Positions 1 through 21,011 of a stretch of DNA of 64,000 bases are shown here, piece by piece. This DNA is from an uncultured Actinomycetota bacterium (GTDB taxonomy: Bacteria > Actinomycetota > Humimicrobiia > Humimicrobiales > Humimicrobiaceae): assembly GCA_964392345.1 (NCBI GenBank), contig CAYMPQ010000001.1, forward strand, positions 5,114 through 69,113. Direction: 5' to 3'. The notes below the pieces were generated by a model. It worked only from the letters and a program-made list of their open reading frames with translations, was not told where the DNA came from and searched no databases. The position numbers and the translations under genes are program-made. The first letter of the stretch is position 1. Each line of letters opens with the position of its first letter.

Positions 1-182
1 TTATGTTTCTTGCAATGCTGCTCCTGATAGCTTATGTAGTGTGTGAAAATAAAATAGCTGGCACCAAAATTATTATTAATGATGAATAAATTATTTTTTA
101 AAAACAGCAAAAAGCCCTGTTGCTCATATAAAAATCTAAACGAAAGCTTGACAGAAAATAAAATTATTAGTACCATAATGCT

Positions 183-211
183 ATTGACTGTTAGCGGTAT
201 CATAATCATAA
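183..211 (+). promoter_or_regulatory. Candidate sigma70-like promoter for the LacI-family regulator gene: TTGACT, 17 nt spacer, CATAAT. A second similar TTGACA...CATAAT copy lies about 35 bp upstream.
   Basis: Hexamers read directly in the sequence upstream of the 232 start; the motif CATAATGCT is duplicated at ~174 and ~206. Confidence 0.3.
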
Positions 212-231
212 TGCTCGAATAAAATAAAGTT

Positions 232-1239
232 ATGAAAGCAAGAGCGACAATTAGAGATGTTGCAAAAAAGTCAAATGTTTCTTTGATGACGGTTTCCCGG
301 GTAGTTAACAAAAAAGGCAATATTTCAAAAGCAACTGCAGCCAAAGTTTTAAAAGCAATTAGAGAATTAAATTATAGGCCCAATATAACAGCAAGAAGCC
401 TGGCTGCTAAAAAGAGTGACTTTATTGCAATAATAGTACCTGATATTTCTAACCCATTTTTTTCTGAAATGATAAAAGGTGCCGAAGATTTTGCAAGAGA
501 AAATGGGTATAATATTTTTCTTGGTGATACCGAAGGTAGAGTAGAGCTGGAGAAGGAATATATTGATGCAGCTATCAATAGAATGGCTGACGGCATTATA
601 CTTGTTGCTCCCCGTTTAGAAAATAGTCTTATTTGTGAAATAAATGATAATATACCTTTAGTAATAGTAGATCGGTCTATAAATAAAAATAATATTCCGC
701 AGGTATACATTGATAATTTAAAAGGGGCCATATCAGCTGTGGAGCATTTAATTAATCTTAATCACAAACACATAGCATTTTTATCTGGACCTAAAGATGT
801 TCAGGATAGCTTACAGAGGGAAAAGGGATATATTATGGCACTGAAAAAACATAATATACCTGTTAATCCTAAATTAATGTTAACCGGTGATTTTAGCTTT
901 GAAGGCGGCAGAGATGCTTTTGAAAAATTTTTCAGTAATTATCATAAACCAACAGCAATTTTTGCTTCCAATGATATAATGGCATTTGGGTTGATTCAAC
1001 GCGCACATGAAATGAATGTAAAAGTTCCCAAAGATGTGTCAATTGTTGGATTTGATGATATTTCATTGTCTTCCCTGATTAATCCACCTCTTACCACGGT
1101 TCGCCATCCCATGTTAAAAATGGGAATCAAAGCAGTTGAACTACTTATAAATAAATTAAATAATAAGCTGGATACTAAAATTAGCTTTAACTTAGAAAAT
1201 ACATTAATAGTTAGAAAGTCTACAAGAGAAATTAAATAA
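232..1239 (+). CDS. LacI/GalR-family transcriptional regulator (N-terminal HTH, periplasmic-binding-protein-like sugar-binding core)
   Basis: N-terminus ATIRDVAKKSNVSLMTVSRVVNKKGNISKATAAKVLKAIRELNYRPN is the classic LacI HTH; 335 aa is the typical length; C-terminal FASNDIMAFG and VSIVGFDD are typical LacI core motifs. Confidence 0.85.
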   Translation: MKARATIRDVAKKSNVSLMTVSRVVNKKGNISKATAAKVLKAIRELNYRPNITARSLAAKKSDFIAIIVPDISNPFFSEMIKGAEDFARENGYNIFLGDTEGRVELEKEYIDAAINRMADGIILVAPRLENSLICEINDNIPLVIVDRSINKNNIPQVYIDNLKGAISAVEHLINLNHKHIAFLSGPKDVQDSLQREKGYIMALKKHNIPVNPKLMLTGDFSFEGGRDAFEKFFSNYHKPTAIFASNDIMAFGLIQRAHEMNVKVPKDVSIVGFDDISLSSLINPPLTTVRHPMLKMGIKAVELLINKLNNKLDTKISFNLENTLIVRKSTREIK

Positions 1240-1434: not shown

Positions 1435-2649
1435 ATGACTACTTTAAGAAAACGAAAAGCAGTTAAGCAAATCAATAGAAAAGTAATTTTAAATATCCTT
1501 CGCAATTCAGGTGAAATATCGATAGCAGAACTTTCAAAAAAGGTAGATTTAAGCAAGACAACGCTCATGAAAATAATGAATTATTATATTGGCAAAGGGC
1601 TTGTTGCTGTCACAGGTAAAGGGAAATCTACTGAAGAAGGCGGCAAAAAGCCAAATATTTTTAAGTTTAATGCAGATGGAGGATACGCTGTTGGAATAGT
1701 GATTTTTGCGAACAAACTGCTATCAGTAATTACTAATCTTAGAGGAGAAATACTCAAGAAAATTTCAGTTGAATTACAAACTAACGAGAAATTTAATATT
1801 GTTTTAAAAAAGTTAGTCAATTCTTATGAACAACTTATAAATGATACAGGTATTGATAGAAAAAAGATCACAGGCCTTGCGGTGGGTACTTATGGTGTAA
1901 CAAATTTTGATAAGGGTGTGGTAATATTTTCCCCACATTTTCCTTCGTGGGGCGAAAATGTTGAACTGAAGAAAAATATATCTGAACAAATACCTGACAA
2001 AATACCTATCTATGTTGATAACGGCAACAGGTTTCAGGCTTTTGCTGAAAAAACCGTGGGCATTGCAAGACATGAAAAGAATATTGTTACCTTAATAGCA
2101 GGCAAAGGACTGGGTTCCGGGATAATAATGGAGAATGAAATAAAAAGGGGCGGACATTTCCTGGTTGGAGAAGTAGGACATATGATTATAAATCCTATAA
2201 GCGAAGAAATATGTGCATGCGGAGGAAAGGGCTGTTTTGAAGCTATGGTGTCAACCGCAAGAATAATCCGAATGGCTAAAGAAAAATATGATAGATACCC
2301 TGGTTCATTGGTTTTTAATGGAGGAAATCCTGGTGAAATAAATATATATAATATATTTAATGCATCAGCTAAATATGATGAACTTGCATTAGAACTTATA
2401 GATGATGTAATTAATTGGTTTGCTATTGGGATATCTAACATAATTCTTTTGTATGACCCTCAAATAATAATAATACAGGGAATATTTGCAAAAGCTGGAA
2501 AATATTTCTTAGATAATCTTAGAAAAAGGGTTAATGAAATTTCTCTGCCAAAGATAAAAAAAGAGACTAAAATTAAATATTCTGAACTTGGTGATAAGGC
2601 GGGTGTGCTGGGAGCAGTATCTTATGCTATTTCTAAATATTTTGAATAA
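1435..2649 (+). CDS. ROK-family transcriptional regulator (NagC/XylR-like): N-terminal winged HTH plus ROK sugar-kinase-like domain with a Zn-binding Cys cluster
   Basis: N-terminal HTH (INRKVILNILRNSGEISIAELSKKVDLSKTTLMKIM), 404 aa, ROK zinc motif HxxxxxEEICACGGKGCFEA, glycine-rich loops. Confidence 0.8.
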   Translation: MTTLRKRKAVKQINRKVILNILRNSGEISIAELSKKVDLSKTTLMKIMNYYIGKGLVAVTGKGKSTEEGGKKPNIFKFNADGGYAVGIVIFANKLLSVITNLRGEILKKISVELQTNEKFNIVLKKLVNSYEQLINDTGIDRKKITGLAVGTYGVTNFDKGVVIFSPHFPSWGENVELKKNISEQIPDKIPIYVDNGNRFQAFAEKTVGIARHEKNIVTLIAGKGLGSGIIMENEIKRGGHFLVGEVGHMIINPISEEICACGGKGCFEAMVSTARIIRMAKEKYDRYPGSLVFNGGNPGEINIYNIFNASAKYDELALELIDDVINWFAIGISNIILLYDPQIIIIQGIFAKAGKYFLDNLRKRVNEISLPKIKKETKIKYSELGDKAGVLGAVSYAISKYFE

Positions 2650-2784: not shown

Positions 2785-2796
2785 AAAGGAGGGGAA

Positions 2797-4212
2797 ATGA
2801 AAAAAACATTATTGTGGATTGTTGTCTTAGTGATAAGCATATCGATGGTAATAGGCTTTTCACTCAGTGGCTGCAAAGAAGAAGCAGCACCTGCTGAAGA
2901 AGCACCTGCTGAAGAGGCACCTGCTGAAGAGGCACCTGCTGAAGAAGCACCTGCAGGTGAGCAGTTCATAACTATTCACTGGGCGCAATGGCAGCCGGCT
3001 GATGCTCTTGAAGAACTTTCTAAAGGCTTTACTGCTGAAACAGGTATTGGTGTAATTGTTGAGCAGACTCCATGGGAAACATTTGTTCAAAAGTATAATA
3101 CAGAGATGATTGCCCGTAGTGATGCCTGGGATATTATAGTTGGTGATAGCCAGGATATTGGTAATATGGCAGTAAACGGACATTATGTAGATTTAACCGA
3201 CTGGGTAATAGAGCATGGAGTTGATAAGAGCTTTACTCCTGCCTCTTTAACTTATTATGCAGAATATCCCAAGGGAGCTGGAAAATATTATGCAGTTCCA
3301 TGTGAAGGAGATGCACTTGGCTGGGCATACCGTAAAGACTTATTTGAAGATCCTGACAATATGGCTGCTTTTGAAGCAAAATATGGGTATGCACTTGGAG
3401 TTCCAGAATCATGGGATGCTCTAAAAGACATAGCTGAATTTTTCCATGACCCAGACAATGATTTCTACGGCGTTGCAATTTATGGGGATAATGGATACGA
3501 TTCACTTGCTATGTTTGCTGAGCAGGTTATCTGGGTTTACGGCGGAGAACTTGGTGATTATGCAACAATGCAGGTTGATGGCCTGTTAAATAGCGAGGGC
3601 GCTATTAAAGGACTAGAATATTACCGGGAACTCTTCCAATTTGTTCCTCCAGGGTTTGGGAATGCATTCTATGTTGCTACAAATGATGCGTTTACAGCTG
3701 GCATAGTTCCAATGGCTACTAATTATTTTGCATTTTTCCCGGCTCTTGCAAATCCTGCGACCAATCCATATGCTGATGTAACAGGTTATTTTGCTTGCCC
3801 GCCGCAGGTAGGTGTAGACGGTGTAGAAAGACAGTTCTCAGCTCTTGGCGGCCAGGGAGCTTCAATGGTAACTTATTCAAAGAAGCAGGATCTGGCATAT
3901 CAGTGGCTGGAATGGTTTGTAAGAGAAGATGTACAGATGGAATGGGTTAAATTAGGTGGCTACACTTGTCATGCAGGAGTTCTAGAGTCTGAAGAATTTC
4001 TTAATGCGGCACCTTATAATCCTGCATTTAAAGTAACCATGGAAATCTTTAAAGACTGGTGGGCATGTCCGGAATATGACATTCTTCTGAGGACATTTAG
4101 TGAGGAGATTGCCAGGTATGTTATTGCAGGAGAAGGAACTGCTGAAGAGACATTAAACAATCTTACAGAAATATGGACAGATATTTTCCAAGAAGCAGGA
4201 TATTATGATTAA
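2797..4212 (+). CDS. ABC transporter substrate-binding lipoprotein, CUT1 (family 1 extracellular solute-binding protein), carbohydrate-type
   Basis: Signal peptide plus lipobox LSGC; 471 aa; aromatic-rich fold typical of sugar SBPs; followed by two MalF/MalG-like permeases; strong RBS. Confidence 0.85.
   Translation: MKKTLLWIVVLVISISMVIGFSLSGCKEEAAPAEEAPAEEAPAEEAPAEEAPAGEQFITIHWAQWQPADALEELSKGFTAETGIGVIVEQTPWETFVQKYNTEMIARSDAWDIIVGDSQDIGNMAVNGHYVDLTDWVIEHGVDKSFTPASLTYYAEYPKGAGKYYAVPCEGDALGWAYRKDLFEDPDNMAAFEAKYGYALGVPESWDALKDIAEFFHDPDNDFYGVAIYGDNGYDSLAMFAEQVIWVYGGELGDYATMQVDGLLNSEGAIKGLEYYRELFQFVPPGFGNAFYVATNDAFTAGIVPMATNYFAFFPALANPATNPYADVTGYFACPPQVGVDGVERQFSALGGQGASMVTYSKKQDLAYQWLEWFVREDVQMEWVKLGGYTCHAGVLESEEFLNAAPYNPAFKVTMEIFKDWWACPEYDILLRTFSEEIARYVIAGEGTAEETLNNLTEIWTDIFQEAGYYD
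2878..2955 (+). repeat. Five tandem in-frame copies of a 15-18 bp unit (gaagaRgcacctgct) encoding (EEAPA)n, a flexible linker just after the lipoprotein Cys
   Basis: Direct tandem repeat visible in DNA; gives EEAAPAEEAPAEEAPAEEAPAEEAPAGE in the SBP and the mirrored SAGASS run in the antisense ORF 2748..2969. Confidence 0.8.
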
Positions 4213-4243: not shown

Positions 4244-4270
4244 CTTCCCCCGGGTTCTTCCCGGGGGAAG
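4244..4270 (+). terminator. GC-rich hairpin (cttcccccggg / ttctt / cccgggggaag) between the SBP gene and the permease genes: candidate partial terminator or attenuator giving SBP over-expression
   Basis: Perfect 11-bp inverted repeat read in the sequence; followed by an A-rich rather than U-rich tract, so probably only partial termination. Confidence 0.4.
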
Positions 4271-4302: not shown

Positions 4303-5223
4303 ATGTTTAAAAGATCAAGAGAAAATCAATTTAATGGCAATCAATTGTTACATCGCAGTATGCGTGATACTACGTTGGTGCGATTATTTATCTTACCAAC
4401 AATTATTTTGTTAATAGCGATAAATATATTTCCTCTGTTTTGGTCTTTGTTTTTAAGTTTCTCTTCTTATTCAGCTAAGGGGGCAACTGAGTGGGGAAAG
4501 AATCCCGAAATGATAGGGGGATTAAATTATTCCCGTATCTTAACCGATCCGAGGATATGGACAAAATTTATAACTACAGCCAAGTATGTAGTTATGTCTG
4601 TGGGTGGAGAAATGATTCTTGGTTTTGGACTTGCTCTTCTCCTCCAATTAAAATTTAAAGGTAAAGGTTTTATAACCACTCTTCTCATATTACCGATGAC
4701 CATGTCTCCTGTAATAGTCGGACTTATGTGGAGATTGTTTTATAACCCAAATTGGGGTATGTTTAATTATTTATTAGGTCTCGGCAAGATAGACTGGATT
4801 TCCGATCCAGCCAGGAATCTTTATTCTATTGTACTTGTAGATATATGGATGTGGACACCTTTTGTCATGCTTCTTTCAATTGCAGGGCTTTCAGCTATTC
4901 CAAAATATTTATATGAAGCTGCAGAAATAGACAGGGCTTCCTGGTGGTTCAAATTTACCCGTATAACTCTACCAATGGTATATCCGCTTCTTTTGGTAGC
5001 TTTAATATTTAGAACCATGGAAGCATTTAAAATATTTGATCTGCCAATGGGAATTACTGGAAGAGGAGCCATGGCGCCACCGCTATTGTCTATGTATCTG
5101 TATAATACTGCATTTGTTACCTGGAAAACAAGTTTTGGCGCCTCGCTTGGTTATATAATGCTAATAATGATTATAGCCATTACAAGCCTCTTTATTAAAT
5201 ATCTTAATAAAGCAAAGACATAG
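4303..5223 (+). CDS. ABC transporter permease, MalF/UgpA-like (CUT1)
   Basis: Six predicted TM segments; EAA loop EAAEIDRASWWFKFTRITLPMV; adjacent to SBP and MalG-like permease. Confidence 0.85.
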   Translation: MFKRSRENQFNGNQLLHRSMRDTTLVRLFILPTIILLIAINIFPLFWSLFLSFSSYSAKGATEWGKNPEMIGGLNYSRILTDPRIWTKFITTAKYVVMSVGGEMILGFGLALLLQLKFKGKGFITTLLILPMTMSPVIVGLMWRLFYNPNWGMFNYLLGLGKIDWISDPARNLYSIVLVDIWMWTPFVMLLSIAGLSAIPKYLYEAAEIDRASWWFKFTRITLPMVYPLLLVALIFRTMEAFKIFDLPMGITGRGAMAPPLLSMYLYNTAFVTWKTSFGASLGYIMLIMIIAITSLFIKYLNKAKT

Positions 5224-5247
5224 CATATTTAACCCGAAAGGAAATTT

Positions 5248-6195
5248 ATGGCAGGGATAGTTAAAAAGAAAAAAAATATTAGCAGGTTTTTTATAATATT
5301 TATACTAATTGTAATTACATTTGTTTATCTCATACCACTTCTGTATGTAGTAAATACATCTTTTAGGCCATGGATTGATATTAAGGAATACCCACCGAAA
5401 ATTATGTTTAAACCGTCAATCAGCAGTTATATAAGGATATTTACATCCAGAGCTGTTTATGCTCCCGGGAAAGAACCCACAGAGGAAGAGTTTGCTAATA
5501 TGAAATGGTATGAACGCATAGTTTATGAAGAGACTAATGAAAAGATAATCCGTATTGGTGATTTACCAAAGAGGTACTTAAATAGTATTATAATTGGTTC
5601 AATAAGTACCGCACTGACAATAATTCTTGGAACGTGTGCAGCATATGGGTTTTCCAGGTTTAAAGTAAGGGGCAAGGATGACCTTTTGTTTTTTATACTT
5701 TCTACTAGAATGCTCCCGCCTGTAGTTGTGGTCATACCAGTTTTTCTTATGTTCAGGTTTCTCGGCCTAAATGATACTCATTTAGGCCTTATACTTTTAT
5801 ACACTGCTTTTAATGTGTCATTTGCTGTCTGGGTGCTTAAAGGATTTATTGATGAGATTCCTATTGAATATGAGGAAGCAGCAATGGTTGACGGCTATAG
5901 CCGTTTACAGGTATTTAGAAAAATAGTTATTCCCCAGGCTTCAACAGGTATTGCTGCAACAGCGGTGTTTTGTTTTGTTTTTGCCTGGAATGAATATGCA
6001 TTTGCCTTTCTTCTTTCAAGGACAGTTGCGCAAACTGTACCTGCGTGGCTGCCTTACCAGATGGGCGTGCTCGGGTATGATTGGGGAGCTGCTGCTGCAG
6101 GAACAGCTGTTTTTCTGCTGCCAGCAATGATATTTACCATTATTTTGAGAAAACACCTGGTGAGAGGTATAACTTTTGGGGCAATAAGAAAATAG
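5248..6195 (+). CDS. ABC transporter permease, MalG/UgpE-like (CUT1) with a long periplasmic loop after TM1
   Basis: EAA motif EAAMVDGYSRLQVFRKIVIPQA; TM topology; operon position. Confidence 0.85.
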   Translation: MAGIVKKKKNISRFFIIFILIVITFVYLIPLLYVVNTSFRPWIDIKEYPPKIMFKPSISSYIRIFTSRAVYAPGKEPTEEEFANMKWYERIVYEETNEKIIRIGDLPKRYLNSIIIGSISTALTIILGTCAAYGFSRFKVRGKDDLLFFILSTRMLPPVVVVIPVFLMFRFLGLNDTHLGLILLYTAFNVSFAVWVLKGFIDEIPIEYEEAAMVDGYSRLQVFRKIVIPQASTGIAATAVFCFVFAWNEYAFAFLLSRTVAQTVPAWLPYQMGVLGYDWGAAAAGTAVFLLPAMIFTIILRKHLVRGITFGAIRK

Positions 6196-10870: not shown

Positions 10871-10898
10871 TAATAAAATAAGTTGGGAGAATATGTAA

Positions 10899-14308: not shown

Positions 14309-15391
14309 ATGAAAGTGGCTGAGAAAATGAAAGCCCAGGTTTTTTATGAAGCTGAAAAGATGAAGCTTGAAGAGATACCAATTCCAGAGATTACAGATAT
14401 AGATATGCTGGTAAGAGTAAAAAATGTTGGAATATGCGGATCTGATATATCCTACTACTATGGCCTTAGTCCTCTTGGCACAGCTACAGGAAAAGGACCG
14501 CTGGTTTTAGGTCATGAATTTACCGGGGAAGTTGCAAAAGTTGGGAAAGTACCAGCAGGTATGGGACTTTTTAAAGAAGGGGACAGGGTTGTAGTTAATC
14601 CAGTTCAGCACTGCAATGCTTGTTATGCGTGTGCTTCTGGCCAAACTCATCTATGTGAAAATTCAAGTGTCCCGGGAGTTACCGTTAACGGTGGTTTTGC
14701 AGAATACTGTGTATCAAAATATACAGGTTTGTTTAAGCTTCCCGATGGTATGAGTTATGCTGCAGGTGCCTTTACAGAACCATTTGCCTGCGCTGTAAAT
14801 GGCATGAAGAAGTTAGAGATCGAGCCTGGCCAGTTTGTAGCAGTGTTTGGGCCAGGTGCAATTGGACTCATGATGGTACAGCTGGCAAAATCAATTGGTG
14901 CAGGAAAGGTTGCATTAATTGGAACCAGGGATTACCGTCTGGAAATGGGCAAAGAAAATGGAGCAGATTATATATTTAATACCAGAAATAAAGACTCAAA
15001 ATACTATGCAGCTGATCTTAAAAAAGCTATATCAGACTTAACAAATGGAAAATTAGCTGACAGGGCAATAGTTCCGACAAGCTCAAACGATGCTTTTGAG
15101 CAGGCTATTGATGTAACTGGAAATTGTGCAATTTTAGTACACTTTGGCTTGCCCAATGAAGGTGATGTCATACATGTCCCTGCACTTAGTTTTCACACTA
15201 TGGATAAACAAATAAGAGCAGCCTGGCTGGCGCCGCTGTCCTGGCCCACCACAATTCGATGTATGGCAGAAGGGCTTGTGAATGTTGAGGCATTGCTAAC
15301 GCACAGATATCCTTTAGAGGATACAGAAAAGGCAATAATAAATCTAAAAAACAGGGTTGGAAATCCAATGAAAGTTCAAATTGTGCTGTAA
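14309..15391 (+). CDS. Zn-dependent medium-chain alcohol/polyol dehydrogenase (sorbitol/xylitol/L-iditol dehydrogenase-like)
   Basis: GICGSD and GHEFTGEV zinc motifs, structural-Zn Cys cluster (CNACYACASGQTHLC), Rossmann GPGAIGL; 360 aa. Confidence 0.85.
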   Translation: MKVAEKMKAQVFYEAEKMKLEEIPIPEITDIDMLVRVKNVGICGSDISYYYGLSPLGTATGKGPLVLGHEFTGEVAKVGKVPAGMGLFKEGDRVVVNPVQHCNACYACASGQTHLCENSSVPGVTVNGGFAEYCVSKYTGLFKLPDGMSYAAGAFTEPFACAVNGMKKLEIEPGQFVAVFGPGAIGLMMVQLAKSIGAGKVALIGTRDYRLEMGKENGADYIFNTRNKDSKYYAADLKKAISDLTNGKLADRAIVPTSSNDAFEQAIDVTGNCAILVHFGLPNEGDVIHVPALSFHTMDKQIRAAWLAPLSWPTTIRCMAEGLVNVEALLTHRYPLEDTEKAIINLKNRVGNPMKVQIVL

Positions 15392-15451: not shown

Positions 15452-16579
15452 TTGGTGGAGGGAGCAGACATGGATGAAATTATCAACACAAAATATCAGA
15501 AGATACAAAGAGATAAGGGTGAGCTCATAGAGCACATGAGCACTTTCAACCTAAAGGTAATGCCCTCTGTGGGAATATGGTATTTTACGCCTGGTGGCGG
15601 AAGATTTCATGACTCATTTGTCTCGCCAAAAGATATACCAGAAAAAATAGAAATGGCTGCTGAAATGGCAAAGTATGGTGTAAAAGCAATAGAGGCCCAT
15701 TATCCTTCTGAGGTAAACGAAGAAAATTACCACCTGTATCAAAAATTGGAGAAAGAAACAGGCATAAAGCTTATTAGCTGCTACCCGGCAATTTTTTTCC
15801 CAAAAGAATATGAATTTGGTTCACTGTCAAATCCATATAAAAAATATAGGGACAAGGCAGTAGAAACTCTTATAGGCTGTTTAAAGTTTGCAAAGGATAA
15901 TGGCCTGCATCATGCAGGCATATGGCCAGGGAGCGATGGCTACCTTTACTCACTTGGAACTGTTTTTTATAAGATGTGGGATATGTTTGAAGACGCAGTA
16001 GCTTATGCAATGGATGAAGTCCCGGGAGTAGCAGTTGCAATCGAACCAAAACCATATGAACCTGCACCAAACAATATATACAGGACAACAGCAGACGGAT
16101 TGTTAGCGTGCCGCGACATAGAGTTAAGACTTAAATCAGAACAAAACAGGAATCTTCTTTCCGAAGGGCGTGCTTTGCTGGGCATGCAGCCTGAGATAGG
16201 GCACATAAGAATGGGGTATGAAGATACGCCATATGCATTTTGCAGGGCAATGAGACAGGGCAGGTTGTTTCATACCCATTGGAATAGTCAGCCTCTGGGA
16301 AACTATGACCAGGATTTAAATGTGGGAGTTGTTGAATGGCAGCAGGCCGAGGCTGCTATGTATGTTTTAAAGATGCATGGCTACAGAGAATATTATGGAA
16401 TTGATATTAATCCTGAGAGGATGCCTGCTGAAAAGGCTGTTGAGATAAACTGTCTTGCATTAAATATTATAAATGACAAAATTAACAACCTTCCCCATGA
16501 AGAAATAATAGAATCATATTTTGACCCTGAAAACCACAGGGGAGATATAGAGCTGATACTTGCAAAGGCAATGAAATAG
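15452..16579 (+). CDS. Divergent xylose-isomerase-family protein (class I XylA-like), with an altered second-metal-site motif
   Basis: AIEPKPYEP, QPEIGHIRM and LFHTHWNSQPLGNYDQDLNVG parallel the class I XylA motifs (AIEPKPNEP, NPEVGHEQM, LFHIDLNGQ..KYDQDLRFG) recalled from Streptomyces XI; 375 aa. Confidence 0.6.
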   Translation: MVEGADMDEIINTKYQKIQRDKGELIEHMSTFNLKVMPSVGIWYFTPGGGRFHDSFVSPKDIPEKIEMAAEMAKYGVKAIEAHYPSEVNEENYHLYQKLEKETGIKLISCYPAIFFPKEYEFGSLSNPYKKYRDKAVETLIGCLKFAKDNGLHHAGIWPGSDGYLYSLGTVFYKMWDMFEDAVAYAMDEVPGVAVAIEPKPYEPAPNNIYRTTADGLLACRDIELRLKSEQNRNLLSEGRALLGMQPEIGHIRMGYEDTPYAFCRAMRQGRLFHTHWNSQPLGNYDQDLNVGVVEWQQAEAAMYVLKMHGYREYYGIDINPERMPAEKAVEINCLALNIINDKINNLPHEEIIESYFDPENHRGDIELILAKAMK

Positions 16580-16621: not shown

Positions 16622-17740
16622 ATGTCTGGTAACAAAATAAAGGTTGCAGTAATTGGCCTTGGCTTTGGTGCAGACTTTATCCCAATTTATCAAAACCATC
16701 CTGATTGTGAGTTGTATGCAATATGCAGAAGAAATAAGGAAAAGTTAAATGAATGCGGTGATAAATATGGCATTGAGCGAAGGTTCACTGACTACAGGGA
16801 TATTTTAGAAATAGATGAGGTTGATGCAATCCATATCGTAACACCAGTAAAAAGTCATGCCGAGTTAGCTATCAATTCGCTTAATGCAGGTAAACATGTT
16901 GCCTGCACGGTTCCAATGGCTACCACAGCTGAGGAATGCATGGAGATAGTTAAGGCAAGAAGAAAAGCAGGAAAAGTTTATATGATGATGGAAACTTCTG
17001 TTTATACTAAAGAATTTCTATACGTTAAAGATCTTGTTGATAGCGGCAAATTAGGGAAAATTCAGTTTTTGCGCGGCTCGCATCAGCAGGATATGGAAGA
17101 TTGGGGCGGGGCATGGCCCGGCTTTCCTCCCATGCATTATGCTACGCATGCTGTCAGCCCCTGTGCTGCTCTTGCCAGAGCTGATGTAGAATCTGTATTT
17201 TGCTTTGGATCAGGGAAAATACGCGAAGAATATATAAAAAAATATAACTCTCCTTTTGCGATTGAAACAACTCTTATAAAGTTTAAGAATTCCGATCTGG
17301 CAGCTGAGGTTACAAGGTCTCTTTATGATACTGTCCGCCAGTATATTGAAAGTTTTGATGTTTATGGAGGCAAACTCTCATTTGAATGGAACAGGTTAAG
17401 CGATGAAGACCCTACTCTGTTTACAGGAAAAGAAGATGCTGTAAGGGTAGAAGTACCTGATACAGGTAATATGCTGCCGAAGGAAATTGCCAGGTTCACA
17501 AGAGCTGAAGATGTGTTGGATGATGAAGAAAAAAAACATCTTTCTTTTGTACAGGGATCTGGACATGGGGGTTCTCACCCACATATGGTACATGAGTTTA
17601 TAAGGGCAATTGTTGAGAAAAGAGACTCAGCAATAGATGTTGAGACTGCAGCAAACTGGACATGTACTGGTATATGCGCCCACGAGTCAGCTATGAGCGG
17701 AGGGGAAAGAGTATATTTGCCAGATTTTTACAATATTTAA
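16622..17740 (+). CDS. Gfo/Idh/MocA-family oxidoreductase (second copy)
   Basis: N-terminal Rossmann KVAVIGLGFGADFIP, 372 aa, family-typical layout. Confidence 0.8.
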   Translation: MSGNKIKVAVIGLGFGADFIPIYQNHPDCELYAICRRNKEKLNECGDKYGIERRFTDYRDILEIDEVDAIHIVTPVKSHAELAINSLNAGKHVACTVPMATTAEECMEIVKARRKAGKVYMMMETSVYTKEFLYVKDLVDSGKLGKIQFLRGSHQQDMEDWGGAWPGFPPMHYATHAVSPCAALARADVESVFCFGSGKIREEYIKKYNSPFAIETTLIKFKNSDLAAEVTRSLYDTVRQYIESFDVYGGKLSFEWNRLSDEDPTLFTGKEDAVRVEVPDTGNMLPKEIARFTRAEDVLDDEEKKHLSFVQGSGHGGSHPHMVHEFIRAIVEKRDSAIDVETAANWTCTGICAHESAMSGGERVYLPDFYNI

Positions 17741-17775
17741 TGACAGAAATTAAGTTTTTAGCAGTGACTGTCAAT

Positions 17776-17814
17776 CTATCCCAAATGACTTGTACTGTAA
17801 GTTATTCGGGATAG
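17776..17814 (+). promoter_or_regulatory. Hairpin (ctatccc ... gggatag, 7-bp perfect arms) enclosing an imperfect dyad acttgtactgtaagt, between the oxidoreductase and FGGY kinase genes
   Basis: Inverted repeats read directly; could be a weak terminator or an operator for one of the locus regulators. Confidence 0.25.
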
Positions 17815-17840
17815 TATTATTTTATGGAGTTTTTTTAAAT

Positions 17841-19358
17841 ATGAGTTTGCTTGGGATAGACATAGGAACAACAGGATGCAAGGCAGTTATATTTAACAGA
17901 TATGGGGAAATACTGTCAGCAGAATACAGAGAGCACCCGCTGATCCATCCAAGAGAAGGGTGGGTGGAAATTGACCCCGGCCTTATCTGGAACAATGTAA
18001 AAGATCTTGTCAGAGATGCAAGCCAGAAGATAAAAAAAGACAAGATTAAAGCATTTAGCGTATCCTGCCAGGGAGAGACTACGGTTCCGGTAAGCAGGGA
18101 TGGAAGTGCTCTATACAATGCAATAGTTACATTTGACAGCAGAACAGAGAGCCAGTACAGGTTCTGGAAGAGAAGACTGGGAGAAAAAAAGATATTTAAA
18201 ATTACCGGAATGCCACTTCACCCAATGTATTCTGTAAATAAAATAATGTGGATAAGGGAAAACCTAAAAGATGTTTACAAGAGAGCATATAAGTTTTTAT
18301 GTTTTGAAGATTACATATTTTCAAAGTTTGGTCTCACCCCAACCATAGATTATACCCTTGCTGCAAGGACAATGGCATTTGATATTAAAAGCAAGAATTG
18401 GTCTGAAGAAATACTTAAAGAAGCAAAAATAAACGTAGATATGCTCTCAGAAGTTAAACCATCAGCAGAAATTGTTGGAGAGATAAATTCAAAAATTTTA
18501 TGTGATATTGGAATTGATGGAAACGTGTTTGGGGTAACAGGCGGCCACGATCAGGCATGCGGAGCATTTGGGGCCGGTATTACTGAAGAGGGCACTGCAA
18601 TGAATGCAACAGGTACATCAGATGTGATAACCCCGATTTTAAATAAAATTTACACAACTGATAGCATGCTGGGCAACAATTACCCCTGCTATCCATATGT
18701 GGTTAAGGATAAATATATGACAATAACATTTAATCTAACAGGCGGTCTTCTTCTCAGGTGGTACCGGGATAATTTTTGTTATGAAGAAAGGGCAGCTGCA
18801 GAAAGAGAAGGCAGGGATGCTTATGATGTGATAACCAGCAAGATGCACTCCAGTCCTGCTAACATATTTATACTTCCCCATTTTGTAGGAAGCGGGACTC
18901 CTTATCTTGATTCAAAATCCAGGGGTGCTGTTTTGGGACTTGACTTGGAAACAAACAAAGCAAAAATAGCAAGAGCAATACTGGAAAGCAATACTTATGA
19001 TTTAAGGCTAAACTTAGAAAAATTGGAAGAGTCAGGAATTACTGTAGACAAGATAATTGCAATAGGCGGGGGAGCAAAATCACACGAATGGTTAAAAATA
19101 AAATCAGATATATTAAATAGAAAGATACTGACTCTAAAGAATCCGGAGGCCGCAAGTCTTGGAGCAGCAATGCTTGCCGGGCTAGCGGTTGGAGAATATA
19201 GCTCTTACAAAAATGCAGTGGAAAATACTGTAAAAGAAGATAAAATGTATTGTCCTGATAGTAACCACAGCAAGCAATATGACATAAGATACTCAATATA
19301 TAAGGACATATACAGCAAAAATAAAAATTTACTGCATAGAATTAGTAAATTGGATTAG
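17841..19358 (+). CDS. FGGY-family carbohydrate kinase (xylulokinase/ribulokinase-like). Probable start MSLLGIDIGTT; the track ORF begins 51 nt earlier at 17790.
   Basis: FGGY N-terminal GIDIGTTGCKAV motif, C-terminal IGGGAKS; RBS ggag 8 nt before the 17841 ATG. Confidence 0.8.
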   Translation: MSLLGIDIGTTGCKAVIFNRYGEILSAEYREHPLIHPREGWVEIDPGLIWNNVKDLVRDASQKIKKDKIKAFSVSCQGETTVPVSRDGSALYNAIVTFDSRTESQYRFWKRRLGEKKIFKITGMPLHPMYSVNKIMWIRENLKDVYKRAYKFLCFEDYIFSKFGLTPTIDYTLAARTMAFDIKSKNWSEEILKEAKINVDMLSEVKPSAEIVGEINSKILCDIGIDGNVFGVTGGHDQACGAFGAGITEEGTAMNATGTSDVITPILNKIYTTDSMLGNNYPCYPYVVKDKYMTITFNLTGGLLLRWYRDNFCYEERAAAEREGRDAYDVITSKMHSSPANIFILPHFVGSGTPYLDSKSRGAVLGLDLETNKAKIARAILESNTYDLRLNLEKLEESGITVDKIIAIGGGAKSHEWLKIKSDILNRKILTLKNPEAASLGAAMLAGLAVGEYSSYKNAVENTVKEDKMYCPDSNHSKQYDIRYSIYKDIYSKNKNLLHRISKLD

Positions 19359-19487
19359 TAAAAAGAGAATACTAAAATTACCATGAAGTATTTTGGCAGG
19401 ATCAATGATTTTATTTGCTCAGGCAGGTAAGATGTAATTGAGATATTTAATCTTATTTTTTAAAATAATTAATAAAAGAGAGGCAAA

Positions 19488-21011
19488 ATGAAATATATAC
19501 TGAGTCTTGACATTGGAACAACTTCAACAAGAGCAATAATAATTGATGAGGATGGAGCCCTTATATCATCAAGCACCAAAGATTACGAGCTTTACACGCC
19601 TAAGCCGGGATGGGCGGAACAGGACCCAATTGATTGGTGGGGTGCATCTGTGTTTACCATAAAAGAAGCAATTAAAAGTTCAAATATTTCTCCAAAGGAT
19701 ATCTCTGCCATAGGGCTCTCGGGGCAGATGCACGGGAGTGTCTTTTTAGACAGAAATGGAGAAGTAATTAGGCCTGCAATACTCTGGTGTGATCAGAGGA
19801 CAAATGATCAATGCAATAAGATTTACAAAATATTTGGCAGGCAAAATTTTATAAAATTATCATACAACAAAGCTCTCCCGGGGTTTACAGCACCCAAGAT
19901 ATTGTGGCTGGAAGAGAAAGAACCTCAAAACTACAAAAAGGTATCAAAAATACTCCTTCCAAAGGATTATATAAGGTACAGACTATCAGGAAAGTATGTA
20001 ACTGAAGTGTCAGATGCATCTGGAACAATACTTATGGACATTGCCAAAAGGTGCTGGTCACATGAAATATTGGATGGACTGGATATAGACAGAGATTTGC
20101 TTCCAGATGTATACGAGTCAACAGAAATAACATCATATGTAAGTAAATCGGCTTCATCAGCAACCGGTCTTACAGAAGGCACGCCCATTGCCGGAGGAGC
20201 AAGTGACAATGCAGCAGGAGCAGTTGGCTCAGGTATTATAAGGGAAGGTCTCCTGTCGGATTCTATAGGAACAAGTGGTGTCGTGTTTGCCTACAGCAAA
20301 AAACCATTATATGACAGTCAGGGAAGGGTACACTCATTCTGTCATGCTGTGCCGGGCAGGTGGCACCTTACAGGAGTAACACTGTCTGCAGCAGGGTCCC
20401 TAAAATGGTATTATGAAAATTTTGGCCCAAGCAGGAAAATTGAAGACATGTATCCGAAAATAAAAGGCTACAACCTGCTAAACAAAGAAGCGGAAAGCAT
20501 TCCTGTTGGCTCAGACGGACTTATATTTTTACCATATCTGTCAGGCGAGAGAACTCCTCATGCTGATCCTTATGCCAGAGGTGTATTTTTTGGACTGTCT
20601 TATTTGCACACCCAGAATCATTTTGTACGCTCAGTTATGGAAGGTGTGGCATTTAGCCAGCTTGATTGTCTTTCTCTTATGAGAAAGCTAAATATTGTAT
20701 CAGACAAAATAGTCCTTTTTGGCGGTGGAGCAAAAAGCAAAGTATGGAAACAGATTATTTCAGATGTAATGAATGCAAAAATTGTAACACTGAATGTCGA
20801 AGAAGGGCCGGCTTACGGGGCAGCTCTTATTGCCGGGGTTGGATGCGGAATATACAGCAGCGTAGAAGAAGCAGCCGACAAGACAATAAAGGAAGCAAGC
20901 CAGATTGATCCCATAAGGGAAAATGTAAAAAAATATGAAAAGTTATATGGAATATACGGGTCTCTTTACGCAGACTTAAAAGATGATTTTGAGAAGTTAG
21001 GCCACATTTAA
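19488..21011 (+). CDS. xylB: Xylulokinase-like FGGY carbohydrate kinase
   Basis: LSLDIGTTSTRAIII, GWAEQDP...WW and FGGGAKS are typical of XylB; 507 aa. The symbol is tentative (family-level similarity). Confidence 0.7.
   Translation: MKYILSLDIGTTSTRAIIIDEDGALISSSTKDYELYTPKPGWAEQDPIDWWGASVFTIKEAIKSSNISPKDISAIGLSGQMHGSVFLDRNGEVIRPAILWCDQRTNDQCNKIYKIFGRQNFIKLSYNKALPGFTAPKILWLEEKEPQNYKKVSKILLPKDYIRYRLSGKYVTEVSDASGTILMDIAKRCWSHEILDGLDIDRDLLPDVYESTEITSYVSKSASSATGLTEGTPIAGGASDNAAGAVGSGIIREGLLSDSIGTSGVVFAYSKKPLYDSQGRVHSFCHAVPGRWHLTGVTLSAAGSLKWYYENFGPSRKIEDMYPKIKGYNLLNKEAESIPVGSDGLIFLPYLSGERTPHADPYARGVFFGLSYLHTQNHFVRSVMEGVAFSQLDCLSLMRKLNIVSDKIVLFGGGAKSKVWKQIISDVMNAKIVTLNVEEGPAYGAALIAGVGCGIYSSVEEAADKTIKEASQIDPIRENVKKYEKLYGIYGSLYADLKDDFEKLGHI

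What the first reader, a model, noticed from the sequence alone, without database searches (positions are those of the whole stretch)
1..21011. 21-kb carbohydrate island combining rare-sugar isomerase/epimerase genes with 3-keto-sugar-type oxidoreductase/TIM-barrel pairs
A single co-directional block encodes regulators (LacI, ROK), a transporter and an unusually rich enzyme set:
- a ketose-3-epimerase-like protein (8880..9731);
- a divergent XylA-like isomerase (15452..16579) and two further xylose-isomerase-fold TIM barrels (6538..7503, 13356..14240);
- two Gfo/Idh/MocA oxidoreductases (7618..8817, 16622..17740), a PMI-like cupin isomerase and a Zn-dependent polyol dehydrogenase;
- two FGGY kinases.
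The Gfo/Idh/MocA plus TIM-barrel pairing is the signature of 3-keto-sugar pathways (levoglucosan LgdA/LgdB, C-glycoside DgpA/DgpBC, 3-ketoglycoside lyases, inosose IolG/IolE). A ketose 3-epimerase plus aldose-ketose isomerases plus a polyol dehydrogenase is the enzyme logic of rare-sugar (psicose/tagatose/pentulose/pentitol) interconversion. No single described operon has this composition, so it may be a new catabolic route converging on xylulose-5-P.
Basis: partly seen in the sequence, partly recalled or inferred. Interest (0 to 1): 0.65.

Follow-up and report, generated by a model that had tools for sequence, protein, structure and literature searches.

The report
Conserved uncharacterised sugar-catabolism operon
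A real 21-kb operon-like gene cluster from an uncultured actinobacterium combines sugar-oxidising, ring-opening, isomerising and phosphorylating enzymes in a combination matching no described pathway I found, and the same set recurs in uncultured bacteria of at least five phyla, so it probably encodes an undescribed sugar or polyol breakdown route whose substrate is still unknown.

Summary

It is not a canonical xylose, inositol or levoglucosan operon. Apart from xylulokinase, no protein reaches an NCBIfam cut-off. ORF7 is only 41-47% identical to true levoglucosan dehydrogenases, which are 70-82% identical to each other. No LgdB1 or LgdC orthologue is present.

The LacI, TIM321 and Gfo399 genes are 46-52% identical to LacI, the LgdB2-position protein and LgdA of a Bacillaceae lgd cluster.

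The whole block is syntenic in four other Actinomycetota MAGs. A core of PMI-fold isomerase, orphan TIM barrel, Zn-dehydrogenase and a TIM barrel with the full ketose-3-epimerase signature recurs in 81-84% of well-flanked related loci from Chloroflexota, Spirochaetota and other phyla. There it sits with different transporters and end enzymes.

Best reading: one functionally coupled, uncharacterised pathway that joins a levoglucosan-type 3-keto module to a free-sugar isomerase/epimerase/dehydrogenase core and FGGY kinases. The substrate is unknown. Convergence on xylulose-5-P holds for this lineage only. I rate it a new variant of a known kind, of moderate interest.

The parts
232..1239 (+). 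LacI-family regulator
   Evidence: Pfam LacI plus Peripla_BP domains. No NCBIfam equivalog is reached. 45.6% identical over 329 aa to the LacI of an Aeribacillus-type levoglucosan cluster.
1435..2649 (+). ROK-family regulator with N-terminal winged helix
   Evidence: Pfam ROK plus HTH_24. NagC/Mlc-like below cut-offs. Orthologue at 66% identity in the syntenic locus L039.
2797..4212 (+). CUT1-type ABC solute-binding protein
   Evidence: SBP_bac_1/8. Best solved relatives are weak: 5iai at 4e-16 and 5ysb at 1e-13. Present at 42-69% identity in about half of related loci.
4244..4270 (.). GC-rich 11-bp-stem hairpin just after the binding-protein gene
   Evidence: Terminator-like scan hit, sequence. 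The T-run is on the minus strand only. It may be an mRNA-stability element (inference).
4303..6195 (+). Two ABC permease genes (4303-5223 and 5248-6195)
   Evidence: BPD_transp_1. MalF/MalG- and UgpA/UgpE-like below cut-offs.
6205..6429 (+). Small 74-aa hydrophobic ORF
   Evidence: Called as a gene on L001 and L002. Conserved at 52-71% in syntenic Actinomycetota loci. No family hit.
6538..7503 (+). TIM321: xylose-isomerase-like TIM barrel, LgdB2-like (candidate 3-keto-sugar eliminase/hydratase)
   Evidence: AP_endonuc_2. PDB 2zds at 1.7e-20 and 8ro4 (2-hydroxy-3-keto-glucal hydratase) at 4.6e-7. 49.8% and 51.5% identical over full length to the TIM322/323 proteins in the LgdB2 position of Metabacillus and Aeribacillus lgd clusters.
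7618..8817 (+). Gfo399: Gfo/Idh/MocA dehydrogenase of the levoglucosan-dehydrogenase subfamily (candidate sugar 3-dehydrogenase)
   Evidence: NCBIfam LevoglcsnDh 389.7 bits against a cut-off of 650. 41% identical to LGDH 6a3f, 44% to 4h3v, 42-47% to plasmid and Bacillaceae LgdAs. 30 LgdA-invariant positions are fixed differently in this group.
8880..9731 (+). T283: TIM barrel with the ketose 3-epimerase signature
   Evidence: NCBIfam D-psicose 3-epimerase 166 bits against a cut-off of 300. PDB D-tagatose and L-ribulose 3-epimerases at 1e-34 to 1e-32. E150, E156, D183, H186, H209, R215, E244 and F246 are all present (residue set from PMC7934257). No similarity to LgdB1. 33% identical to YcjR.
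9773..11990 (+). Two tandem MsiK/UgpC-type ABC ATPase genes (9773-10870 and 10899-11990)
   Evidence: ABC_tran plus OB_MalK. 44% identical to each other. Always paired in related loci.
12080..13273 (+). U397: member of an unannotated family with the class I phosphomannose-isomerase fold (candidate free-sugar aldose-ketose isomerase)
13356..14240 (+). T294: orphan xylose-isomerase-like TIM barrel
   Evidence: AP_endonuc_2. No NCBIfam hit at 1e-5 and no PDB hit. No plasmid homologue. Directly downstream of U397 in 47 of 63 loci.
14309..15391 (+). ZnDH: Zn-dependent MDR dehydrogenase (probable start 14315)
   Evidence: ADH_N plus ADH_zinc_N. Best NCBIfam hit is scyllo-inosose 3-dehydrogenase IolM at 202 bits against a cut-off of 450. 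Catalytic Cys/His-Glu and the four-Cys structural Zn motif are visible in the sequence. Follows T294 in 44 of 63 loci.
15452..16579 (+). T375: divergent XylA-like TIM barrel (probable start 15470)
   Evidence: AP_endonuc_2 at 44 bits. xylA_Arthro 63 bits against a cut-off of 447. PDB xylose isomerases at 1e-16. Found mainly in Actinomycetota versions of the cluster.
16622..17740 (+). Gfo372: second Gfo/Idh/MocA oxidoreductase (candidate keto-sugar reductase)
   Evidence: GFO_IDH_MocA N-domain. Homologues have a weak GH109_C hit on record. Only the Rossmann part resembles DgpA, LgdA, LgdC or YcjS, at 24-36%. Present in 50% of related loci.
17790..19358 (+). K522: FGGY kinase of unknown specificity (probable start 17841)
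   Evidence: FGGY_N/C. XylB model 316.6 bits against a cut-off of 380. Paired with a class II ketose-bisphosphate aldolase in Chloroflexota and Spirochaetota loci.
19488..21011 (+). Xylulokinase XylB
   Evidence: TIGR01312 XylB 580.3 bits against a cut-off of 380. Present at 64-68% identity at the end of the syntenic Actinomycetota blocks.

Best explanation
The block is one functionally coupled catabolic gene cluster, probably one to three transcripts. It belongs to an uncultured Candidatus Humimicrobiaceae-like actinobacterium and encodes a pathway that has not been described.

Proposed working (all steps are inferred; no activity was measured):
1. A small carbohydrate is imported by the CUT1 ABC system under LacI/ROK control. 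Candidates are an anhydrosugar, a glycoside, a rare aldose or ketose, or an alditol.
2. Gfo399, a levoglucosan-dehydrogenase relative, oxidises a ring hydroxyl (probably C3) with NAD+.
3. TIM321, which is LgdB2/hydratase-like, carries out beta-elimination and/or hydration on the keto-sugar. This opens an anhydro or glycosidic bond without a glycoside hydrolase. No glycoside hydrolase is encoded in the block.
4. Gfo372 and/or the Zn-dehydrogenase reduce or re-oxidise keto intermediates.
5. The resulting free sugar is converted by the strongly conserved core. U397 (PMI fold) and the XylA-like T375 act as aldose-ketose isomerases. T283 acts as a ketose 3-epimerase. T294 is a further TIM-barrel isomerase, epimerase or dehydratase. 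ZnDH provides polyol/keto-sugar redox.
6. The ketose products are phosphorylated by the FGGY kinases. In this lineage one of them is a true xylulokinase, so at least part of the carbon enters as xylulose-5-phosphate.
For: Gene content and families.

Operon-like packing: 17 co-directional genes with gaps of 24-147 bp, apart from 342 bp that hold a small ORF. No convincing internal terminators.

Synteny: the same order is kept in L002/L012, L027, L039 and L063 at 58-85% identity.

Co-occurrence across phyla despite reshuffling and transporter swaps, in 32 non-redundant loci with at least 6 kb on both sides:
- T283 81%, T294 81%, ZnDH 84%.
- Gfo399 62%, Gfo372 50%.

Link to the levoglucosan-type module: LacI 45.6%, TIM321 51.5% and Gfo399 47% identical to LacI, the LgdB2-position protein and LgdA of an Aeribacillus-type lgd cluster. 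TIM321 also matches a solved 2-hydroxy-3-keto-glucal hydratase. LgdB2 is reported to do both elimination and hydration (PMC10066097).

U397:
- PMI fold with invariant His/His/Glu/His.
- A distant member replaces RhaA/FucI in an aldolase-isomerase-FGGY triad (L090).
- A 58%-identical member follows a Zn-ADH in a tetritol-type cluster on a plasmid of a cultured Arthrobacter (L093).

T283: complete ketose 3-epimerase residue set in all 60 cluster homologues.

XylB passes its equivalog cut-off.
Against: - No enzyme activity, transcript or growth data exist. The organism is uncultured.
- The order of steps and the substrate are guesses.
- Every enzyme except XylB is below family cut-offs, so specificities may differ from the named relatives.
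- Gfo399, TIM321, T375, K522 and XylB are absent from many related loci. The 'single pathway' may therefore be a core plus interchangeable accessory modules.
- Promoter-like sites occur in several intergenic regions, but not above shuffled expectation. Separate transcripts cannot be excluded.
- PMI-family enzymes normally act on phosphosugars. The apparent loss of the phosphate-binding Arg rests on a low-confidence alignment.
Confidence: 0.55

Rival explanations
1. It is simply a levoglucosan utilisation cluster of the LgdA/LgdB1/LgdB2/LgdC type, and the remaining genes are passengers.
For: - ORF7's best named family is levoglucosan dehydrogenase, and its best characterised PDB relative is LGDH 6a3f.
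- LacI, TIM321 and Gfo399 are 46-52% identical to their counterparts in an Aeribacillus lgd cluster.
- LgdB2 can substitute for LgdB1 in vitro (PMC10066097).
Against: - True LgdAs from three phyla are 70-82% identical to each other and to LGDH, whereas ORF7 is 41-47%.
- ORF7 scores 389.7 bits against a cut-off of 650.
- 30 LgdA-invariant positions are fixed to other residues in the Gfo399 group.
- There is no LgdB1 orthologue, and ORF15 is not LgdC.
- Levoglucosan yields glucose, which would not need the most conserved genes of the cluster (U397, T294, ZnDH, T283).
Confidence: 0.1
2. It is a variant cyclitol (inositol or methyl-inositol) pathway. The roles would be an IolG-like dehydrogenase, IolE-like TIM barrels, an IolM-like Zn-dehydrogenase, an IolO-like epimerase, and the cupin as an IolB-like isomerase.
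For: Sub-threshold NCBIfam hits:
- IolG 110.7 bits and IolE 47.8 bits.
- IolM 202 bits, the best hit of ORF13.
- IolO 124 bits.

Related loci in other phyla add further pieces:
- An IolC-like PfkB kinase and a class II aldolase of the family that contains IolJ.
- MtaA-like methyltransferases with a B12-binding protein.
- A GH4 alpha-galactosidase.

These would fit methyl-inositols and galactosyl-cyclitols (inference).
Against: - All scores are far below their cut-offs of 290-450.
- No ring-cleaving IolD or IolN equivalent was found.
- FGGY kinases, XylB and XylA-like genes do not fit known inositol routes.
Confidence: 0.1
3. The block is a mosaic of independent units that happen to be adjacent: an ABC importer with a 3-keto module, a separate rare-sugar/polyol module, and a housekeeping xylulokinase.
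For: - Accessory genes vary between lineages.
- XylB is preceded by 129 bp containing a promoter-like site at 19438-19466.
- The core occurs with CUT2 or MFS transporters elsewhere.
Against: - The ATPase genes of the importer lie between the 3-keto genes and U397, so the transporter straddles both halves.
- Full 17-gene synteny is kept at 58-85% identity.
- Gfo399 and T283 stay next to the core in other phyla even when the order is shuffled.
- No terminators were detected.
Confidence: 0.15
4. ZnDH, T283 and Gfo372 form a YcjQRS-like module. It would epimerise a glycoside or sugar through 3-keto intermediates (as in guloside to glucoside), and the rest of the cluster only feeds or drains it.
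For: - The family trio is the same as in ycjQRS. In Chloroflexota loci the gene order ZnDH-T283-Gfo372 matches ycjQ-ycjR-ycjS.
- ORF8 is 33% identical to YcjR, and PDB 6wn6 matches at 4e-22.
- The ycj locus also has a CUT1 ABC system and a LacI regulator: YcjW 31%, YcjV 44%.
Against: - ORF13 to YcjQ is only 28% over 211 aa (4e-9). ORF15 to YcjS is 30% over the N-domain only.
- ORF8 keeps Glu156 of ketose 3-epimerases where YcjR has Gln, and it is closer to free-ketose epimerases.
- No phosphorylase like YcjM or YcjT is present.
Confidence: 0.1

Closest known systems
Bacterial levoglucosan pathway (LgdA, LgdB1, LgdB2, LgdC with LacI and an ABC transporter; Bacillus smithii, PMC7676230)
   Same: - A LacI regulator, an ABC importer, a dehydrogenase of the LGDH subfamily and an LgdB2-like TIM barrel at 46-52% identity to Bacillaceae counterparts.
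- The same chemical logic of oxidation, elimination, hydration and reduction is plausible.
   Different: - ORF7 lies outside the tight LgdA orthogroup: 41-47% against 70-82%.
- There is no LgdB1 and no LgdC orthologue.
- The transporter is CUT1 rather than CUT2.
- Eight further enzymes (PMI-fold isomerase, two or three more TIM barrels, Zn-dehydrogenase, two FGGY kinases) have no role in levoglucosan breakdown.
E. coli ycjM-W locus (YcjQ D-guloside 3-dehydrogenase, YcjR 3-dehydro-D-guloside 4-epimerase, YcjS D-glucoside 3-dehydrogenase; RefSeq annotation)
   Same: A Zn-MDR dehydrogenase, a TIM-barrel epimerase and a Gfo/Idh/MocA dehydrogenase sit beside a CUT1 ABC importer and a LacI repressor. 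Related loci keep the same gene order.
   Different: - Similarity is at family level only (28-33%).
- No phosphorylases or phosphoglucomutase are present.
- T283 keeps the free-ketose epimerase residue set.
Ketose 3-epimerases (D-tagatose, D-allulose and L-ribulose 3-epimerases)
   Same: T283 has all metal, catalytic and O1-O3-binding residues at identical positions, and these enzymes are its best PDB matches.
   Different: - It scores below the NCBIfam equivalog cut-off (166 against 300).
- The distal pocket residues appear different.
- Its native context is a multi-enzyme catabolic operon.
Class I phosphomannose isomerase (ManA; PDB 1pmi, 2wfp, 1qwr, 1zx5)
   Different: - 10-17% identity, with no Pfam or NCBIfam membership.
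- The first metal ligand is His instead of Gln.
- The genomic context (FGGY kinase downstream, Zn-ADH partner) points to unphosphorylated sugars.
Isomerase-kinase-aldolase triads (RhaA/RhaB/RhaD, FucI/FucK/FucA) and tetritol pathways of actinobacteria (D-erythrulose kinase of the DhaK family plus RpiB/TpiA-type isomerases; from general knowledge)
   Same: U397 relatives sit in exactly such contexts (L090, L093). In Chloroflexota and Spirochaetota the core is joined to an FGGY kinase and a class II aldolase.
   Different: The isomerase is of a different, unannotated family. The window's version has no aldolase.

Membership tests
Levoglucosan (Lgd) pathway | LgdA orthologue: at least 60-70% identity to characterised LGDHs, and NCBIfam NF052479 at 650 bits or more | tested here: not met
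   ORF7 is 41% identical to 6a3f and 42-47% to three true LgdAs, which are 70-82% identical to each other. It scores 389.7 bits.
Levoglucosan (Lgd) pathway | LgdB1 (3-keto-levoglucosan beta-eliminase, about 275 aa) next to lgdA | tested here: not met
   None of the window's TIM-barrel proteins is an LgdB1 orthologue. ORF8 has no hit at E 1e-4 to 1e-5; the best matches are ORF6 at 22% over 159 aa and ORF12 at 24% over 168 aa. The LgdB1-position proteins compared came from Arthrobacter, Metabacillus and Aeribacillus clusters and are 52-74% identical to each other.
Levoglucosan (Lgd) pathway | LgdB2 (3-ketoglucose dehydratase/hydratase, about 325 aa) | tested here: inconclusive
   ORF6 is 50-52% identical to the 322-323-aa proteins that occupy the LgdB2 position in Bacillaceae lgd clusters. 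The B. smithii sequence itself could not be obtained.
Levoglucosan (Lgd) pathway | LgdC (glucose 3-dehydrogenase) | tested here: not met
   ORF15 matches LgdC-position proteins only over about 150 N-terminal residues, at 24-30%.
Ketose 3-epimerase (DTE/DAE) | Metal ligands E150, D183, H209, E244 and substrate residues E156, H186, R215 | tested here: met
   All are present at these positions in ORF8 and in 60 of 60 cluster homologues. The residue list comes from PMC7934257.
Ketose 3-epimerase (DTE/DAE) | NCBIfam equivalog score (NF051856, 300 bits) | tested here: not met
   166.4 bits.
Ketose 3-epimerase (DTE/DAE) | C3 epimerisation of a free ketose | not testable with these tools
   This needs an enzyme assay.
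Class I phosphomannose isomerase | PMI three-domain cupin fold | tested here: met
Class I phosphomannose isomerase | Sequence-family membership (Pfam PMI_typeI, TIGR00218) | tested here: not met
   No Pfam hit even at E 10. TIGR00218 scores 16.4 bits against a cut-off of 116.
Class I phosphomannose isomerase | Metal site (Gln/His/Glu/His) and phosphate-binding Arg | tested here: inconclusive
   H125, H127 and H211 align to Q97, H99 and H255 of Salmonella PMI and are invariant. The Glu could be E143 or E158. R274 aligns to Q232, but only in a low-confidence alignment.
Canonical xylose operon (XylA/XylB) | XylB equivalog | tested here: met
   ORF17 scores 580.3 bits against a cut-off of 380.25 for TIGR01312.
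Canonical xylose operon (XylA/XylB) | XylA equivalog | tested here: not met
   ORF14 scores 63.4 bits against a cut-off of 447 for TIGR02631.
Inositol catabolism (IolG/IolE or Thermotoga IolG/M/N/O) | Equivalog-level IolG, IolE, IolM and IolO, plus a ring-cleaving hydrolase | tested here: not met
   Scores against cut-offs are 110.7/355, 47.8/290, 202.4/450 and 124.1/300. No IolD- or IolN-like gene lies in the block.
E. coli YcjQRS epimerisation module | Orthologues of YcjQ, YcjR and YcjS | tested here: not met
   28% over 211 aa, 33% over 221 aa and 30% over 149 aa. The family composition and, in other phyla, the gene order are the same.

The most novel reading that the evidence does not exclude
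The cluster encodes a widespread, glycoside-hydrolase-free pathway of uncultured anaerobes (Humimicrobiia, Anaerolineae and other Chloroflexota, Spirochaetota, Armatimonadota).

In this reading a levoglucosan-type 3-keto module opens an anhydrosugar or glycoside other than levoglucosan. Candidates are mannosan or galactosan from biomass burning, or a pentose- or polyol-containing glycoside.

A previously unrecognised family of PMI-fold isomerases, acting on unphosphorylated sugars, would then work with a native ketose 3-epimerase and a Zn-dehydrogenase. Together they would funnel the released rare sugar to a phosphorylated ketose, here xylulose-5-P.

This would give ketose 3-epimerases, so far known mainly as biocatalysts, a defined physiological pathway.
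Probability: 0.25. Interest if true: 0.75.

Novelty: new variant of a known kind. Interest (0 to 1): 0.55.

Why it matters
Three points would matter if the reading is right.

1. **A large gap in annotation.** The PMI-fold protein has no Pfam or NCBIfam family. It nevertheless occurs in 339 species-level genomes and thousands of metagenome proteins at 66-91% identity across phyla.

2. **A broader role for 3-keto-sugar chemistry.** It would extend the chemistry known from levoglucosan, C-glycoside and 3-keto-glycoside pathways to abundant uncultured anaerobes of sediments, peat and digesters.

3. **A physiological context for two enzyme types.** It would place a ketose 3-epimerase and a free-sugar isomerase, both of interest for rare-sugar manufacture, in a natural pathway.

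Identifying the substrate would also suggest a selective carbon source for enriching Humimicrobiia, which have no cultured member in the data seen here.

Tried and rejected
- **First AF2 run.** The model of ORF11 from 44 close homologues (71-91% identity) was unusable (pLDDT 57.9). It was replaced by a diverse alignment.
- **Early profile comparison.** hhalign with the shallow alignment gave only 0.9% probability to ManA.
- **Unavailable resources.** The afdb50 fold library was not available. The LGDH structure paper (PMC6231136) is not held, so levoglucosan-binding residues could not be checked. Group-specific conservation was used instead.
- **B. smithii Lgd sequences.** They could not be retrieved. 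The last protein search, with Metabacillus TIM322, listed no B. smithii entry. An Aeribacillus-type contig with the same architecture was used instead.
- **Promoter and terminator scans.** They gave nothing above shuffled expectation. Intergenic palindromes gave no shared operator.
- **Binding-protein search.** PDB matches to the binding protein were too weak to name a ligand.
- **Plasmid searches.** No homologues of T294 or T375 were found, and only weak ones for Gfo372.
- **Literature searches.** Searches for a corrinoid pinitol demethylase, for clusters combining 3-keto, MocA and FGGY, and for a cupin erythrulose isomerase found nothing relevant. The IolM/N/O search returned mostly ophthalmology papers.
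- **Rejected readings.** A canonical xylose or inositol operon, a true levoglucosan operon, a C-glycoside DgpABC system (no DgpB/C-like proteins, and only N-domain similarity to DgpA), and a mobile island.

Full report
**1. What is in the sequence**

Positions 232-21011 hold 18 ORFs, all on the + strand. Intergenic gaps are 24-147 bp, except for 195 bp between the two regulator genes and 342 bp that contain a conserved 74-aa ORF.

Pfam and NCBIfam give this order:
- LacI regulator.
- ROK regulator with a winged helix.
- CUT1 solute-binding protein and two permeases.
- TIM321 (AP_endonuc_2).
- Gfo399 (Gfo/Idh/MocA).
- T283 (AP_endonuc_2).
- Two MsiK/UgpC-type ATPases.
- U397, with no family.
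- T294 (AP_endonuc_2).
- A Zn-MDR dehydrogenase.
- T375, weakly XylA-like.
- Gfo372.
- The FGGY kinase K522.
- XylB.

Three details need correcting:
- The transporter is split. Its two ATPase genes lie after the first three enzyme genes.
- Two starts are probably 15470 and 17841.
- Nothing marks the block as a horizontally acquired island. GC content matches the surroundings and there is no tRNA. Downstream lie a SorC regulator with a 2-oxoacid dehydrogenase complex, then Rho, RF1 and PrmC.

**2. Not a canonical operon**

Only ORF17 passes a curated equivalog cut-off (XylB, 580 against 380). All others are far below:

| Protein | Model | Score | Cut-off |
|---|---|---|---|
| Gfo399 | levoglucosan dehydrogenase | 389.7 | 650 |
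| T283 | D-psicose 3-epimerase | 166 | 300 |
| ZnDH | IolM | 202 | 450 |
| T375 | XylA | 63 | 447 |
| K522 | XylB | 317 | 380 |
| TIM321 | IolE | 48 | 290 |

T294 and U397 have no hit at all.

**3. The cupin**

U397 has no Pfam, NCBIfam or PDB sequence match. A profile of close homologues found only Salmonella PMI in the PDB, at E 0.21. The manA model gave E 0.004.

A first AF2 model from close homologues failed (pLDDT 57.9). An exhaustive representative search then supplied diverse relatives: 897 clusters, down to 28% identity. With these:
- The alignment showed invariant E53, G72, H125, H127, E143, G162, H211, E220 and G335.
- hhalign to E. coli ManA gave 94% probability and E 1e-7.
- AF2 gave pLDDT 96.1.
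- Foldseek's top 17 PDB hits are all class I phosphomannose isomerases.

At sequence level it is a separate, unannotated family.

**4. Distribution and conservation**

The nearest sequences are metagenome and MAG contigs of Candidatus Humimicrobiaceae, class Humimicrobiia, Actinomycetota.

A scan of one genome per species found 339 species with a U397 relative. The best 80 are all MAGs, at 66-91% identity. They come from Actinomycetota, Anaerolineae and other Chloroflexota, Spirochaetota, Armatimonadota and Planctomycetales.

I called ORFs in all loci and matched them to the window's proteins:
- The complete 17-gene order recurs in four other Actinomycetota MAG species (L002/L012, L027, L039, L063) at 58-85% identity.
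- In 63 loci with enough downstream sequence, T294 follows U397 directly in 47, and ZnDH then follows in 44.
- In 32 non-redundant loci with at least 6 kb on both sides:

| Gene | Present in |
|---|---|
| T283 | 81% |
| T294 | 81% |
| ZnDH | 84% |
| Gfo399 | 62% |
| Gfo372 | 50% |
| CUT1 importer | about 50% |
| K522 | 47% |
| TIM321 | 34% |
| T375 | 28% |
| XylB | 22% |

Other versions use a CUT2 (Rbs-type) or MFS transporter. They also add genes absent from the window:
- A GH4 alpha-galactosidase, above its NCBIfam cut-off.
- MtaA-like methyltransferases, with or without a B12-binding protein.
- Other IolE-like TIM barrels.
- A class II ketose-bisphosphate aldolase next to the K522-type kinase.
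- A PfkB kinase.
- An Arthrobacter-type XylA-like gene.

There is therefore a strongly conserved four-enzyme core (U397, T294, ZnDH, T283). It has frequent partners (Gfo399 with a TIM321/TIM333-type barrel, and Gfo372) and lineage-specific entry and exit modules.

**5. Relation to the levoglucosan pathway**

The pathway is described in PMC7676230 and PMC10066097. I fetched true lgd clusters from three sources:
- An Arthrobacter agilis plasmid and a Metabacillus plasmid.
- An Aeribacillus-type contig whose order, LacI-TIM269-SBP-Gfo-ATPase-permease-Gfo-TIM323, matches the B. smithii cluster.

Their LgdAs are 70-82% identical to each other and to the crystallised LGDH. ORF7 is 41-47% identical to them. 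Of 242 columns invariant in four LgdAs, only 95 are kept in the 26-member Gfo399 group. Thirty are fixed to another residue, mostly shared with the uncharacterised Kribbella protein 4h3v.

Comparison of the other proteins:
- The LgdB1-position proteins are 52-74% identical to each other but have no detectable similarity to ORF8.
- ORF15 resembles the LgdC-position proteins only in the Rossmann domain.
- ORF6 is 50-52% identical over its full length to the LgdB2-position proteins. It also matches a solved 2-hydroxy-3-keto-glucal hydratase.
- ORF1 is 45.6% identical to the lgd-cluster LacI.

LacI, TIM321 and Gfo399 thus look like a diverged relative of the LacI/LgdB2/LgdA part of the Firmicute cluster, probably with a different substrate. 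The cluster as a whole is not an lgd cluster.

**6. The other enzymes**

- **T283.** It carries E150, E156, D183, H186, H209, R215, E244 and F246. This is the full metal, catalytic and O1-O3-binding set of ketose 3-epimerases (residue list from PMC7934257). All 60 homologues in related loci carry it too, including 33 that are below 60% identity. YcjR has Gln at position 156, and the LgdB1 proteins lack the pattern.
- **ZnDH, T283 and Gfo372.** They have the same family composition as E. coli YcjQ, YcjR and YcjS, which RefSeq annotates as D-guloside 3-dehydrogenase, 3-dehydro-D-guloside 4-epimerase and D-glucoside 3-dehydrogenase. In Chloroflexota they also have the same order. Identities are only 28-33%.
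- **ZnDH.** It shows the catalytic and structural zinc motifs and a GxGxxG...D pattern. NAD preference is inferred from this.
- **U397 relatives in informative contexts.** A 33%-identical member sits between a class II aldolase/LysR pair and a rhamnulokinase-like FGGY kinase (L090); this is the classical isomerase-kinase-aldolase arrangement. A 58%-identical member lies on a plasmid of a cultured Arthrobacter. There it follows a Zn-ADH at the end of a cluster with DUF2291, a CUT2 ABC system, a DhaK-family kinase, RpiB and a TpiA-family protein (L093). From general knowledge of actinobacterial and rhizobial erythritol/threitol loci, that is a tetritol-type polyol cluster.

These contexts argue that the family isomerises unphosphorylated aldoses ahead of a kinase. 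A low-confidence alignment adds a hint: the phosphate-binding Arg274 of Salmonella PMI corresponds to an invariant Gln.

**7. Most likely mechanism**

All steps are inferred. A small carbohydrate is imported and oxidised at a ring hydroxyl by Gfo399. TIM321 processes the product by elimination and/or hydration, without any glycoside hydrolase; none is encoded in the block. Gfo372 and/or ZnDH adjust the redox state. U397 and T375 isomerise the product, T283 epimerises it at C3, and T294 acts on it in some further way. K522 and XylB phosphorylate the resulting ketoses.

Shown:
- The families, the PMI fold and the epimerase residue set.
- The synteny and the co-occurrence figures.
- The relationships to Lgd and Ycj proteins.

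Inferred:
- Every catalytic step, the order of steps, the single-operon status and the substrate.

Candidate substrate classes, unranked by evidence, are non-levoglucosan anhydrosugars, glycosides of pentoses or polyols, rare aldoses and ketoses, and alditols.

It is not a conserved feature of the cluster family.

**8. Rivals**

| Rival | Confidence |
|---|---|
| True levoglucosan operon | 0.10 |
| Variant cyclitol pathway | 0.10 |
| Mosaic of independent units | 0.15 |
| YcjQRS-like epimerisation module as the central function | 0.10 |

The evidence for and against each is given in the Rival explanations section.

**9. Novelty and interest**

All folds and reaction types are known. The combination, the conserved core and the PMI-fold family appear undescribed: no characterised orthologue was found in the PDB, NCBIfam, the plasmid collection or the paper library. 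I class it as a new variant of a known kind.

A carbohydrate-metabolism specialist would see a good pathway-discovery target, with a widely distributed unannotated enzyme family, rather than something startling. Interest is 0.55.

Noticed in passing
window 32968-33255 (+): T-box leader (Rfam RF00230, 109.8 bits against a gathering score of 93), upstream of a PLP-dependent enzyme gene at 33473-34834 (Pfam PALP). It is the only Rfam hit in the window.
   Followed up: no
window 9773-11990: Two tandem MsiK/UgpC-type ABC ATPase genes, 44% identical to each other, are separated from their permease genes by three enzyme genes. The pair is kept together in related loci of several phyla. This suggests a heterodimeric ATPase for a CUT1 importer, which is unusual.
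   Followed up: partly
window 6205-6429: A 74-aa hydrophobic ORF lies between the second permease and TIM321. It is conserved at 52-71% in syntenic Actinomycetota loci. A different 142-aa membrane ORF accompanies Gfo399 in Chloroflexota and Spirochaetota loci.
   Followed up: partly
window 4244-4270: A perfect GC-rich 11-bp-stem hairpin lies directly after the binding-protein gene, with no T-run on the coding strand. It may be an intra-operon mRNA-stabilising element.
   Followed up: no
window 21150-28980: A SorC/DeoR-type regulator is followed by E1 alpha, E1 beta, E2, a gene on the opposite strand, E3 and a Cof-type HAD phosphatase. This looks like an acetoin/pyruvate-type 2-oxoacid dehydrogenase locus. 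It is not conserved next to the sugar cluster in related loci.
   Followed up: partly
L004, L046, L058, L069, L079 and others (for example L004 8560-9972 and 15289-17188): In Chloroflexota and Spirochaetota versions of the cluster, a GH4 alpha-galactosidase sits directly upstream of the PMI-fold gene. A B12-binding protein plus an MtaA-like URO-D methyltransferase follow the epimerase-like gene. This hints at galactosylated and/or O-methylated substrates.
   Followed up: partly
L093 (Arthrobacter sp. FW306-07-I plasmid NZ_CP084551.1) 13956-15161: This is the only homologue of the PMI-fold protein found in a cultured organism (58% identity, annotated as hypothetical). It lies at the end of a tetritol-type polyol cluster, next to an integrase gene. 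That makes it an experimentally tractable entry point to the family.
   Followed up: partly
L091 (Metabacillus dongyingensis plasmid pBY2G20) 1-11185: This true lgdA cluster carries two extra Zn-dehydrogenases and several extra TIM barrels. Two of these (TIM274 and TIM255) have the full ketose 3-epimerase signature. Some bona fide levoglucosan loci therefore also combine Lgd genes with epimerase/dehydrogenase genes.
   Followed up: partly
L089 (GCA_041862235.1) 10001-11194: A 47%-identical member of the PMI-fold family occurs in an archaeal contig (eIF-1A, RIO1, Topo VI), beside a bacterial-type PGI/PMI-family gene on the opposite strand. The family therefore extends to archaea.
   Followed up: no
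L094 (Rhodococcus sp. WB1 plasmid pWB1) 8945-11176: A TIM327-Gfo397 pair, 33% and 50% identical to ORF6 and ORF7, lies in a cultured Rhodococcus next to SDR, enolase-superfamily and Zn-ADH genes. It is another uncharacterised relative of the LgdB2/LgdA-like pair.
   Followed up: no
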